Source of the DNA: a virus
Virus record (IMG/VR): IMGVR_UViG_3300028829_002503
Length of the DNA: 64,000 bases
Direction: 5' to 3' (one strand)
Part shown: piece by piece, positions 16,500 to 17,862 of the stretch
Numbering within the stretch: position 1 is the first letter of the stretch
How the letters are laid out: every line of letters begins with the position of its first letter
Notes under the pieces: model-generated
Told to the model about the DNA's origin: nothing
What the model saw: only the letters and a program-made list of their open reading frames with translations
Database searches by the model: none
Position numbers and translations under genes: made by a program

Positions 16500-16751
16500 G
16501 TGTCACCGAAAACAATCGAAAGAGTAAAATGGCTCGCTACATTTATGTTTGTTTGTGCGGGAACACTCATATCTTTAAATCTACCAGAATCTAAGTATGC
16601 ATTCCCATTGTTTGCAACAGGACATTTGATTGCAATTTACGTTTTTGTGACATTGAGAGATAAACCACTAATTGTACAAAACATATTTTTCTTATGTATT
16701 GATGTGATAGGAATCTATCAGTGGCTAATAGCGCCTACACTTTCTTCTTAA
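16500..16751 (+). CDS. Small three-helix membrane protein
   Basis: 83 aa, three hydrophobic segments, GTG start with SD GAGGGAG. Confidence 0.7.
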   Translation: MSPKTIERVKWLATFMFVCAGTLISLNLPESKYAFPLFATGHLIAIYVFVTLRDKPLIVQNIFFLCIDVIGIYQWLIAPTLSS

Positions 16752-17172
16752 CGCTGTTTAGATACTCAGTAAGAATCTTAGAACTTCCTACTCGTACATT
16801 GATAATACCATTATAGTACTCATCTGTCTCAAGCACTCTACGGTCAAATTGTTCTTTTGCTTCTACGTAACTTAGTGCGCCGCGACTCGGGCAATAGTGT
16901 AGAATTTCACGTGAAAATTTATCGGGGCCTAATTTTTTTACATCCGCATTCAAATGGTCAGACGAACCCCAATAGGTTCTCCAATCACTTTCTTTATAAC
17001 CACGCCTTTTATTCTTTTTTCCTTTAAGAGGAGGTTTAGTGGTTTTAAATCTTGCTAACTTCTTACCTATGTATTTTCGGTCATTTGTAAGATTCGTAAT
17101 AAGATATACAAATCCCTCAACATTATCAGGTAATTCATTTACAACTTCATTGTTATATGTCCATTCACTCAT
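16735..17172 (-). CDS. Stand-alone GIY-YIG endonuclease domain protein
   Basis: GFVY-x9-YIGKK, YWGSS, conserved Glu and YYN; 145 aa with no obvious DNA-binding extension. Confidence 0.85.
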   Translation of the reverse strand: MSEWTYNNEVVNELPDNVEGFVYLITNLTNDRKYIGKKLARFKTTKPPLKGKKNKRRGYKESDWRTYWGSSDHLNADVKKLGPDKFSREILHYCPSRGALSYVEAKEQFDRRVLETDEYYNGIINVRVGSSKILTEYLNSVKKKV

Positions 17173-17299
17173 GGTAATAATTATTCCATACTTTAATAGG
17201 TCTAAAGACCTAATATCTTCGTAAATTTCTTTTCGCTTTGCTCAAAGAAGATTTCCTCGATATTTATTTCTTCCATATAATTATATATCAATATTATAA

Positions 17300-17827
17300 A
17301 ATCATTATATTTTAATTACTTGTTCGGTTTGGAAGACACAATTGCCCATCCACTGGGCAACTGCAAATGAAACTTGTTCTTGCTCATCAGATTCTATGTC
17401 TAAGTTAGCCACTAGCAATGGCGAGGTCGGTTGACGATTCCCTCATAACTTAGTATTGCGTCTTTCGACTCAACGGCACCTCAATTAGTCTACATAGAAT
17501 AAAAATCTAATCGAAGTTGGTAGTGCTTTAAAACCTACCAGCGGTTTGTACATTTCTGTACGGTAAATACTAGTCATTCAATTACCTTTAGAGTAACGAA
17601 TGTTAAAATACGAAATATCTCTTTGTGGTTTACGAGAAGCAGTGTCGGATTTCACCCAACTTATCCGAACGTATGTATAATATACGCCCTCAATCCCGAG
17701 TCGGCAACCCGACTAACAGTTCCACTATGTATTGCCTTATTAGAATCATTATTAGCCTTAATATCTTTAGATTTTGTATCAGATTTGGGAATTTTTATTA
17801 GAATTATATCGATTTGTATTAGTTATG
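17300..17827 (-). ncRNA. Candidate large structured non-coding RNA (~500 nt)
   Basis: ORF-poor 700-bp gap with its own minus-strand promoter; nested long-range helices (17391-99 with 17492-500; 17400-07 with 17446-53); two GAAA tetraloops and G-U pairs that only work on the minus strand. Confidence 0.65.
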
Positions 17828-17833
17828 TTGAAC

Positions 17834-17862
17834 ATACTAACATAGTGGAAAAGGGATGTCAA
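17834..17862 (-). promoter_or_regulatory. sigma70-type promoter for the large RNA / GIY-YIG unit
   Basis: Minus strand: TTGACA (17862-17857), 17-nt spacer ending TG-T, TAGTAT (17839-17834). Confidence 0.8.

What the first reader, a model, noticed from the sequence alone, without database searches (positions are those of the whole stretch)
16735..17862. Minimal GIY-YIG nuclease directly downstream of the large RNA: candidate RNA-nuclease module
Seen: the 145-aa GIY-YIG gene is co-oriented with the RNA, about 130 bp downstream, and I see no U-tailed terminator between them, so both probably share one transcript. Known: Seg/I-TevI-type homing enzymes carry extra DNA-binding domains, which this protein appears to lack; IscB/TnpB nucleases obtain specificity from an adjacent structured RNA. 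Inference: the RNA may bind, guide or inhibit the nuclease. Caveat: short GIY-YIG genes are common in T4-like phages, so the adjacency may be synteny only.
Basis: inference. Interest (0 to 1): 0.75.

Follow-up and report, generated by a model that had tools for sequence, protein, structure and literature searches.

The report
Phage nuclease gene beside large RNA
A small DNA-cutting enzyme gene sits just after a large structured RNA gene in an uncultured aquatic giant-phage relative; the two are neighbours on the same strand in every relative examined, but the evidence favours an old, conserved gene neighbourhood over an RNA-guided nuclease.

Summary
A 145-aa stand-alone GIY-YIG nuclease gene (16735-17172, minus strand) lies 128 nt or more downstream of a promoter-driven, covariation-supported RNA of about 500 nt. 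Both are on the same strand and no terminator-like site lies between them. The window is an uncultured relative of the PA5oct/Phosso jumbo phages.

In this phage family, every RNA locus with complete flanks (189 of 199) has a small nuclease gene on the same strand. In 179 of them it lies within 450 nt.

Four results argue against a dedicated RNA-guided enzyme:
- The order is not fixed. The nuclease is downstream in the window's clade and upstream in most relatives, where the RNA has its own promoter.
- Other genes are sometimes inserted between the two.
- In some relatives, and in PA5oct and Phosso, an unrelated PD-(D/E)xK nuclease (PF24608) fills the same slot next to the RNA or noncoding region. 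The two nucleases were never found together.
- Close homologues in other phage families (Melnitz at 79% aa, phiM12, syn9, Mordin) have no flanking noncoding region.

The nuclease is single-copy, anciently inherited and under strong purifying selection, which does not fit a selfish homing endonuclease. The best reading is a housekeeping DNA endonuclease sharing a transcription unit with the RNA. A real functional RNA-nuclease pairing remains possible, at about 0.2.

The parts
16735..17172 (-). 145-aa stand-alone GIY-YIG nuclease gene (SegE-like 'minimal' family, PF19835 / phrog_447)
   Evidence: AF2 model pLDDT 96; best structural match is the I-TevI catalytic domain, Z 8.5. Family invariants are Y23, Y34, G36, W64, Y67, S70, Y102, E104, N121. 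dN/dS is about 0.07-0.12.
17198..17213 (-). Invariant palindromic hairpin TTAGGTCTTTAGACCT, about 25 nt upstream of the ATG
   Evidence: Invariant in classes A and B. Unique in the window at 0 mismatches. Related hairpins end the RNA in relatives where another gene or a terminator follows.
17221..17255 (-). AU-rich hairpin with a variable loop (GAAAUCUUCUUU...AAAGAAAUUU)
   Evidence: Read from alignment A2: the changes lie in the loop, and a TGA appears in L002/L013, so it is not coding. Class B has GAGCGAAAGCG at this place, shared with the RNA tails of relatives.
17261..17268 (-). Late-promoter-like AATAAATA (T4 type TATAAATA) between the RNA core and the nuclease
   Evidence: [AT]ATAAATA occurs within 200 nt upstream of the nuclease in 41 of 47 distinct class A/B loci; background is 0.086 per 800 nt. 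Exact TATAAATA occurs 3 times in the window, each just upstream of a gene.
17327..17827 (-). Conserved structured RNA core (about 500 nt); the start is inferred from the -10 box, the end is the last invariant block GGGCAATTGTGTCTTCCAAAC
   Evidence: No Rfam family.
17738..17822 (-). Four CUAAUA repeats with spacers of variable length in the 5' part of the RNA
   Evidence: There are 4 copies in 85 nt, against 34 on this strand in 64 kb.
17834..17862 (-). Sigma-70-type promoter TTGACA-17-TAGTAT of the RNA
   Evidence: conserved in relatives.
17890..18965 (-). Context: gp26-like baseplate hub (18117-18965) and a 73-aa ORF (17890-18111), upstream on the same strand
13670..15640 (+). Context: gp46 (SbcC-like) recombination nuclease subunit and a 58-aa Hc1-like ORF; in most relatives the nuclease follows these directly

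Best explanation
**What the gene is.** The 145-aa gene encodes an intact stand-alone GIY-YIG DNA endonuclease of the widespread 'minimal' SegE-like family.

**Its status in this phage family.** In these uncultured aquatic relatives of PA5oct and Phosso it is a fixed, single-copy, strongly constrained gene of the gp47-gp46 ... gp26 neighbourhood.

**Inferred role.** It most likely acts as a structure-specific or non-specific DNA endonuclease in phage DNA metabolism, either resolving branches or breaking down host DNA. The inference rests on its alternation with a PD-(D/E)xK nuclease (PF24608) in the same slot. Depositors annotate that nuclease as a Holliday-junction resolvase in PA5oct and Phosso.

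**Relation to the RNA.** The large RNA is a separate gene with its own sigma-70 promoter. RNA and nuclease are old co-oriented neighbours.
- In the window's clade the nuclease lies downstream. It is probably reached by read-through from the RNA promoter (early) and by its own late-promoter-like element.
- In most relatives it lies upstream, as the last gene of the gp46 operon.

The RNA does not guide the nuclease.

**Shown:** gene identity, fold, selection, neighbourhood statistics, nuclease swapping.
**Inferred:** biochemical role, transcription pattern, absence of RNA-protein contact.
For: **Identity and fold.**
- PF19835 at 1.3e-35 and phrog_447 over its full length.
- AF2 pLDDT 96. The top structural matches are all GIY-YIG nucleases: I-TevI Z 8.5, PD-T4-3 7.0, UvrC-N 5.3, T4 EndoII 5.3, At-HIGLE 4.1, Slx1 3.0.

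**The family does not depend on the RNA.**
- 834 GenBank phage records and 2351 clusters at 50% identity, mostly 135-150 aa.
- Homologues in Melnitz (79% aa), phiM12, syn9 and Mordin are tightly packed between protein genes.
- blastn finds no RNA in any GenBank phage, and model R1 finds none in Melnitz.

**Old and constrained.**
- dS of the nuclease tracks that of gp46: 0.08-1.07 within the clade, saturated against classes B and C and Melnitz.
- dN stays at 0.02-0.16, against 0.41 for gp46 and 0.70 for gp26.
- There is one copy per large contig.

**Neighbourhood (199 RNA loci).**
- Nuclease immediately downstream in 103 (102 GIY-YIG, 1 PD-(D/E)xK).
- Nuclease immediately upstream in 76 (73 GIY-YIG, 3 PD-(D/E)xK).
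- Nuclease 600-1600 nt away in 10.
- All on the same strand.

**The order varies and the RNA has its own promoter**.

**Insertions between the two**.

**Analogue swapping.**
- PF24608 takes the slot in L229, L235, L236, L243 and L245, and in PA5oct and Phosso, which have no GIY-YIG homologue.
- The PD-bearing 192-kb contig has no PF19835, and the two GIY-bearing contigs checked (262 and 145 kb) have no PF24608.
- No RusA or EndoVII is found in five large contigs.

**A late-promoter-like motif lies between the RNA and the nuclease**.
Against: - Adjacency and co-orientation survived at least two rearrangements and at least one change of nuclease fold. That is more persistent than expected for unrelated neighbours and is the usual signature of functional coupling.
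- No terminator separates the RNA and the nuclease in the window's clade.
- In Phosso the PD-(D/E)xK nuclease also abuts a very strongly folding region of about 800 nt (z -6.0 and -5.1).
- The biochemical role is only inferred from position and annotation. The Hjc match of PF24608 members is weak (E 0.009).
- The large contigs are only 23-76% complete, so the absence of other resolvases is not proven.
Confidence: 0.5

Rival explanations
1. RNA and nuclease form a real two-part system. The RNA regulates, sequesters, scaffolds or targets a small nuclease effector, or the nuclease acts on the RNA or on a structure the RNA forms. The effector is interchangeable between GIY-YIG and PD-(D/E)xK, as effectors are in many modular systems. 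Strict guide-RNA targeting of the IscB/TnpB kind is the least likely sub-case (about 0.03-0.05).
For: - No complete RNA locus lacks a same-strand nuclease, out of 189.
- All 46 loci of the gp46-anchored sample carry a nuclease and an RNA or RNA-like gap.
- Adjacency is kept in three arrangements, including an inverted nuclease-then-RNA unit in L193-L198.
- The slot is refilled by another nuclease rather than lost.
- No terminator lies between them in the window.
- The nuclease has no DNA-binding domain but has a K/R-rich beta-hairpin insert at residues 40-61.
- The 5' part of the RNA is variable, between CUAAUA repeats.
Against: - The same RNA family pairs with two unrelated protein folds, which is hard to reconcile with a specific ribonucleoprotein.
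- The order is variable, and the RNA has its own promoter.
- The K/R-rich insert and the minimal size are family-wide, and RNA-free homologues are 79% identical.
- The variable segment has no match in the window.
- All neighbours in this short interval (gp46, Hc1, the 73-aa ORF, gp26) are also syntenic, so the association rests on few independent events.
Confidence: 0.2
2. The nuclease is a free-standing homing endonuclease of the Seg type. It uses the conserved RNA gene or its flank as target and landing site, and the RNA gene simply hitch-hikes. Different endonuclease families have invaded the same site.
For: - The Pfam family is named after T4 SegE.
- The best structural match is the I-TevI catalytic domain.
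- Two nuclease families occupy the same slot on either side of the RNA.
- As a precedent from general knowledge, T4 SegB lies in the tRNA/stable-RNA cluster.
- An invariant 14-bp palindrome lies next to the gene.
Against: - The gene is present in every complete locus rather than sporadically.
- It is single-copy.
- Synonymous sites are saturated in step with the neighbours, while dN/dS is about 0.1 or less.
- There is no DNA-binding domain.
- No empty site was seen among about 190 loci.
Confidence: 0.1
3. The noncoding region is a replication origin whose promoter-driven structured transcript primes DNA synthesis through an R-loop, as with ColE1 RNA II or T4 oriF/oriG. The adjacent nuclease processes the R-loop or branch, so the cis site and the enzyme stay linked.
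For: - A strong sigma-70 promoter, a structured transcript of about 500 nt and an AT-rich tail.
- Location beside the recombination genes gp46/gp47.
- In Phosso the gap is flanked by the PD-(D/E)xK nuclease on one side and RNase HI on the other.
- Short CTAATA repeats could serve as protein-binding sites.
Against: - Extensive compensatory base-pair changes point to a function of the folded RNA itself.
- There is no evidence of replication initiation.
- A nuclease that recognised an origin would not be expected to be swapped for another fold.
Confidence: 0.1

Closest known systems
I-TevI catalytic domain and T4 Seg (SegA-G) GIY-YIG homing endonucleases
   Same: The same fold and motifs: GIY...YIG, then an invariant Glu and Asn. 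The Pfam SegE_GIY-YIG match is strong, and the best structural match is 1LN0 with Z 8.5.
   Different: There is no C-terminal DNA-binding domain. The gene is single-copy, fixed in all relatives and under strong purifying selection, not sporadic. No intron or target gene is involved.
T4 endonuclease II (DenA) and Slx1 / At-HIGLE: GIY-YIG nucleases with housekeeping roles
   Same: A small GIY-YIG enzyme without a sequence-reading domain that acts in DNA breakdown or branch resolution. There are structural matches: 2WSH Z 5.3, 7WME Z 4.1, Slx1 Z 3.0.
   Different: There is no detectable sequence similarity to solved structures. The structural matches are weaker than to I-TevI. The function is inferred only from position and from the swap with PF24608.
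HEARO / IscB omega-RNA and TnpB reRNA (RNA next to a nuclease ORF, later shown to be a guide)
   Same: A large conserved structured RNA is always found next to, and co-oriented with, a small nuclease gene.
   Different: The nuclease is GIY-YIG or PD-(D/E)xK, not RuvC/HNH. The order of RNA and gene is not fixed. There are no transposon ends. The same RNA goes with two protein folds. No guide-like end segment is seen.
T4 gene 49 (endonuclease VII) expression from a distant early and a proximal late promoter
   Same: A nuclease gene lies downstream of a long structured early transcript and a late-type promoter just upstream, with hairpins near the start. The comparison comes from general knowledge of T4.
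   Different: Here the upstream RNA is an independently conserved structured RNA that in most relatives lies downstream of the nuclease. It is therefore not merely a leader.

Membership tests
GIY-YIG nuclease superfamily (PF19835 SegE_GIY-YIG subfamily) | Profile match above the curated cut-off | tested here: met
   122.7 bits against a cut-off of 25, covering residues 4-124 and profile positions 1-123.
GIY-YIG nuclease superfamily (PF19835 SegE_GIY-YIG subfamily) | The GIY and YIG motifs about 10 residues apart, then a conserved Glu and Asn | tested here: met
   GFVY (Y23), KYIG (Y34, G36), E104 and N121 are invariant in 53 family members. Equivalence to I-TevI Y6/Y17/E75/N90 is inferred, not superposed residue by residue.
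GIY-YIG nuclease superfamily (PF19835 SegE_GIY-YIG subfamily) | The conserved catalytic Arg between YIG and Glu | tested here: inconclusive
   K38 is nearly invariant, and an R in FxREIL is the consensus but below 90%. No residue-level superposition was made.
GIY-YIG nuclease superfamily (PF19835 SegE_GIY-YIG subfamily) | The GIY-YIG alpha/beta fold | tested here: met
   AF2 pLDDT 96.1. 1LN0 Z 8.5, rmsd 2.7 over 82 residues; the next matches are also GIY-YIG enzymes.
Free-standing homing endonucleases (Seg/I-TevI type) | A separate DNA-binding domain joined to the catalytic domain | tested here: not met
   The protein has 145 aa. The model shows only the core plus one C-terminal helix, and no second Pfam domain is found.
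Free-standing homing endonucleases (Seg/I-TevI type) | Sporadic presence among close relatives; signs of recent lateral spread | tested here: not met
   The gene is present in every complete locus. Its dS keeps pace with gp46 and is saturated between clades.
Free-standing homing endonucleases (Seg/I-TevI type) | Cleaves the endonuclease-free allele near its insertion site | not testable with these tools
   This needs an enzyme assay. No empty allele was found to serve as substrate.
RNA-guided nucleases with adjacent guide RNA (IscB/TnpB/Cas) | RuvC and/or HNH nuclease with RNA-binding domains | tested here: not met
   Only a GIY-YIG domain is present.
RNA-guided nucleases with adjacent guide RNA (IscB/TnpB/Cas) | Fixed position of the RNA relative to the nuclease gene, and a variable guide at one end | tested here: not met
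   The nuclease is downstream in 103 loci and upstream in 76. The variable part is internal to the 5' region, between CUAAUA repeats, and matches nothing in the window.
RNA-guided nucleases with adjacent guide RNA (IscB/TnpB/Cas) | The RNA binds the protein and directs cleavage | not testable with these tools
   No tool for RNA-protein binding was available.
Group I intron with (or beside) a GIY-YIG endonuclease | Group I ribozyme core; interrupted host gene | tested here: not met
   No Rfam match even at E up to 10. The RNA lies between complete genes with its own promoter.
Type III toxin-antitoxin (ToxIN-like) | Tandem repeats of about 34-36 nt upstream of an endoribonuclease toxin | tested here: not met
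   The only repeats are 6-nt CUAAUA motifs with irregular spacers, and the protein has a DNA nuclease fold.
Holliday-junction resolvases (functional class) | Occupies the resolvase slot; exclusive of other resolvases in the genome | tested here: inconclusive
   The gene alternates with PF24608, which depositors call a resolvase. No RusA or EndoVII is found in five contigs, but these are 23-76% complete. No activity data exist.

The most novel reading that the evidence does not exclude
A large structured RNA and an interchangeable small nuclease (GIY-YIG or PD-(D/E)xK) form a two-gene functional unit that is core to a whole family of jumbo-type phages, including the culturable PA5oct and Phosso. 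In this unit the RNA would control, recruit or be processed by the nuclease. That would be a situation like HEARO before IscB was understood, but with nuclease folds never shown to work with an RNA partner.
Probability: 0.2. Interest if true: 0.85.

Novelty: new variant of a known kind. Interest (0 to 1): 0.5.

Why it matters
- **For annotation.** Hundreds of phage genes of this family are mislabelled 'NAD synthetase' or 'homing endonuclease'. Here the family behaves as a fixed, strongly constrained housekeeping nuclease that is interchangeable with a PD-(D/E)xK enzyme annotated as a resolvase.
- **For RNA biology.** The neighbourhood anchors a new large structured RNA family with no Rfam match. 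The RNA is found throughout an abundant uncultured aquatic phage group and probably in PA5oct and Phosso, which can be grown and manipulated.
- **If the persistent RNA-nuclease linkage is functional.** It would be a new kind of RNA-protein system. If it is not, it is a caution against reading 'structured RNA next to nuclease' as a guide-RNA system.

Tried and rejected
**RNA family searches.**
- Rfam at gathering thresholds on the window and on seven relatives, and at E up to 10 on the region, gave no family for the RNA.
- blastn of the region against 50,697 GenBank phages matched only the nuclease gene.
- Covariance model R1 (5' core of classes A and B) found neither the class C RNAs nor anything in Melnitz or Phosso. 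Its one weak hit, in PA5oct at 12470-12576 (E 0.02), lies far from the locus and is taken as chance.
- nhmmer iteration starting from class A did not expand. Iteration starting from class C1 did, and it reached class B only through the 3' hairpins. Homology of the 5' cores between arrangements therefore remains unproven.
- nhmmer found nothing in the PA5oct or Phosso gaps.

**Protein searches.**
- Sequence and profile searches of the nuclease against PDB sequences found nothing.

**Other checks.**
- The four ncRNAs reported in the PA5oct paper lie elsewhere in the genome (PMC7318152).
- A small conserved ORF in the spacer was considered and rejected, because L001, L002 and L013 carry an in-frame TGA.
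- Recent lateral spread of an RNA-plus-nuclease cassette was considered because of the high nucleotide identity. It was rejected on synonymous-site divergence.
- The 17-mer and 16-mer scans also returned about 33 chance loci without the RNA.
- Full-text searches for an RNA-associated GIY-YIG enzyme found nothing relevant.

- No whole genome is held for the window.
- Complex prediction was not used, because it does not handle RNA partners.
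Full report
**What is at the coordinates**

The ORF at 16735-17172 (minus strand) encodes 145 aa. It matches PF19835 SegE_GIY-YIG (1.3e-35, 122.7 bits) and phrog_447 over the whole 148-position profile. No other domain is found.

Upstream on the same strand, 17173-17889 is free of credible ORFs. It starts with TTGACA-17-TAGTAT (17862-17834). The scan found no terminator-like site anywhere in 16300-18300. The minus strand folds better than shuffled controls (z -3.07) and the plus strand does not (z -0.81). Rfam has no family for this region.

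The context is a T4-like module: gp46 (13670-15454, plus strand), a gp26-like hub (18117-18965, minus strand) and a 73-aa ORF. The nearest cultured relatives are PA5oct-like phages (gp46 50% aa, gp26 32%) and Sinorhizobium phage Phosso.

**The RNA is real**

- Metagenomic relatives found through gp26 (62-68% aa) all keep the stretch. It is 85-97% identical in nucleotides, more conserved than the flanking 73-aa ORF.
- In 29 distinct sequences RNAalifold gives 111 pairs, 14 with compensatory double changes and very few broken.
- A more distant clade, class B, adds many more compensatory changes.
- The 5' part carries four to six CUAAUA motifs with spacers of variable length. The window has 4 copies in 85 nt.
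- The core ends at the invariant GGGCAATTGTGTCTTCCAAAC (about 17327).
- Between the core and the ATG lie a late-promoter-like AATAAATA (17268-17261) and two hairpins, including the invariant palindrome TTAGGTCTTTAGACCT (17213-17198).
- [AT]ATAAATA is present there in 41 of 47 distinct class A/B loci, against a background of 0.086 per 800 nt.
- Exact TATAAATA occurs three times in the window, each just before a gene.

Read-through from the RNA promoter is therefore plausible, but the nuclease probably also has a late promoter of its own.

**The nuclease**

- The AlphaFold model is confident (pLDDT 96.1).
- Its best structural matches are all GIY-YIG enzymes: I-TevI catalytic domain Z 8.5, PD-T4-3 7.0, UvrC-N 5.3, T4 EndoII 5.3, At-HIGLE 4.1, Slx1 3.0.
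- Fifty-three family members share invariant Y23, Y34, G36, W64, Y67, S70, Y102, E104 and N121, so the enzyme looks active.
- The family is large: 2351 clusters at 50% identity and 834 GenBank phage records. Most members are 135-150 aa long, so 'minimal' is the family norm.

**Is it a selfish homing gene?**

Synonymous divergence says no.

- Within the window's clade, dS of the nuclease (0.08-1.07) tracks dS of gp46 (0.16-1.19).
- Against classes B and C and Melnitz, synonymous sites are saturated, yet dN is only 0.08-0.18. For comparison, dN is 0.41 for gp46 and 0.70 for gp26 against class C.
- The gene is single-copy on each of four large contigs.
- It is present in every locus with complete flanks.

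It is an old, vertically inherited and strongly constrained gene.

**Co-occurrence test**

Three anchors were used:
- invariant RNA segments;
- the nuclease protein;
- a gp46 alignment, which is blind to both the RNA and the nuclease.

Results:

- Scans with the RNA segments found about 52 loci. Every one with enough downstream DNA has the nuclease.
- The nuclease search revealed other arrangements. In classes C and D (gp46 51-57% aa, gp26 about 30%) the order is gp46, an Hc1-like ORF, the nuclease, then 500-860 nt free of ORFs.
- In L175 a TTGACA-17-TATAAT promoter starts 12 nt after the nuclease stop codon.
- In class C1 this stretch is a structured RNA, with 31 of 98 pairs compensatory among six sequences.
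- Iterative nhmmer from class C1 reaches 54 such regions, including inverted nuclease-then-RNA units (L193-L198). It links to class B through the terminal hairpin and the GAGCGAAAGCG hairpin. The RNAs therefore appear to be one family, although model R1 of the 5' core does not cross between arrangements.

Tally over the 199 loci with a detectable RNA:

| Position of nuclease relative to the RNA | Loci |
|---|---|
| GIY-YIG immediately downstream, same strand | 102 |
| GIY-YIG immediately upstream, same strand | 73 |
| PD-(D/E)xK adjacent, same strand | 4 |
| Nuclease 600-1600 nt away, same strand, other genes between | 10 |
| None found, all cut by a contig end | 10 |
| Complete locus without a nuclease | 0 |

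In the gp46-anchored sample with at least 2.5 kb downstream, all 46 loci have a nuclease. Forty have a significant RNA hit. The other six have sub-threshold hits to the RNA tail in the right place.

**Evidence against a dedicated RNA-nuclease particle**

1. The order is variable, and the RNA has its own promoter.
2. Other genes are inserted between the two: a 402-aa radical-SAM-like ORF in L029/L046/L149, and a 335-aa ORF in L236.
3. In L245 an RNA clearly of the window's type (7e-92) is followed by a 176-aa PF24608 PD-(D/E)xK nuclease instead of the GIY-YIG gene. L229, L235 and L243 have gp46, the PD-(D/E)xK nuclease and then the RNA.
4. The genes that depositors call 'RusA-like resolvase' in PA5oct and 'Holliday junction resolvase' in Phosso are PF24608 members, not Pfam RusA. 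They lie in the same neighbourhood next to gene-poor gaps of 1-1.3 kb. The Phosso gap folds at z -6.0 and -5.1.
5. PA5oct and Phosso have no GIY-YIG homologue. The PD-bearing 192-kb contig has none either, and the GIY-bearing contigs have no PF24608. The two nucleases therefore exclude each other.
6. Outside this phage family the nuclease has no RNA neighbour. This holds for Melnitz (79% aa, 3 nt after the preceding ORF), phiM12, syn9 and Mordin.
7. The variable 5' part of the RNA matches nothing of 13 nt or more in the window.

**Reading**

The simplest account is that the slot holds a small DNA endonuclease needed by the phage, for branch resolution or host DNA breakdown. Two unrelated folds fill it in different lineages. 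The RNA is a neighbouring, independently promoted gene.

The window's arrangement, with the RNA ahead of the nuclease, would give early read-through plus late expression. From general knowledge, this is reminiscent of T4 gene 49.

The persistence of same-strand adjacency through at least two rearrangements and a change of fold is still unusual. It keeps a functional link alive, at about 0.2 for any direct link and about 0.03-0.05 for guide-RNA targeting. The homing-endonuclease and origin/R-loop readings are each given about 0.1.

**Limits**

- No whole genome is held for the window.
- The large contigs are 23-76% complete.
- RNA homology across arrangements rests on the 3' part of the RNA and on architecture.
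- The number of independent evolutionary events behind the association is small.
- Many of the 199 loci are redundant or were fetched through the RNA or the nuclease itself. Only the gp46-anchored set is unbiased.

Noticed in passing
L029 (reverse strand; 402-aa ORF between RNA tail and nuclease), also L046 and L149: A 402-aa ORF with a CxxxCxxC radical-SAM-like motif is inserted between the RNA tail hairpins and the GIY-YIG gene, and its stop overlaps the nuclease ATG. L236 has a Radical_SAM/SPASM ORF between gp46 and the PD-(D/E)xK nuclease.
   Followed up: partly
L058 3836-5181 (PA5oct 75.8-77.2 kb) and L059 3959-4974 (Phosso 229.76-230.77 kb): Cultured relatives have 1-1.3 kb gene-poor gaps next to a PF24608 nuclease. 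The Phosso gap folds at z -6.0 and -5.1. PA5oct has only 38-50-aa annotated ORFs there. These may be divergent homologues of the RNA, and they are open to experiment.
   Followed up: partly
window 17738-17822 (minus strand): Four CUAAUA motifs with variable spacers lie in the 5' part of the RNA. Relatives have 4-6 copies, sometimes CUAACA. This could be a binding-site array for a protein.
   Followed up: partly
window 45296-45501 (minus strand): A manA RNA (RF01745) match above the gathering score (56.7 bits). It is the only Rfam hit in the window.
   Followed up: no
window 3110, 37765, 49203 (plus strand): Exact TATAAATA (the T4 late-promoter consensus) occurs only three times, fewer than in shuffled sequence, and each time just upstream of a gene. 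This fits T4-type late transcription in this phage.
   Followed up: partly
window 15464-15640 (plus strand) and relatives: A 58-aa ORF with a precomputed PF07432 (Hc1, histone H1-like) hit follows gp46 in nearly all relatives.
   Followed up: no
L150 4032-4472, L229 7461-7904 and equivalents: In the nuclease-then-RNA arrangement the RNA is followed by a conserved ORF of 146-190 aa with no Pfam family. It is preceded by the same kind of twin hairpins that precede the nuclease in the window.
   Followed up: partly
GenBank phage records (for example phiM12 gp201, syn9 gp202, Mordin gp080): Members of this GIY-YIG family are widely annotated as 'NAD synthetase'. This appears to be a propagated misnomer.
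   Followed up: partly
window 16256-16462 (plus strand): The 3' hairpin plus U-run at about 16430-16461 matches only the terminator part of Rfam BTnc005 (25 bits, far below the gathering score). It is consistent with a small terminated transcript between the 217-aa ORF and the 83-aa ORF.
   Followed up: no
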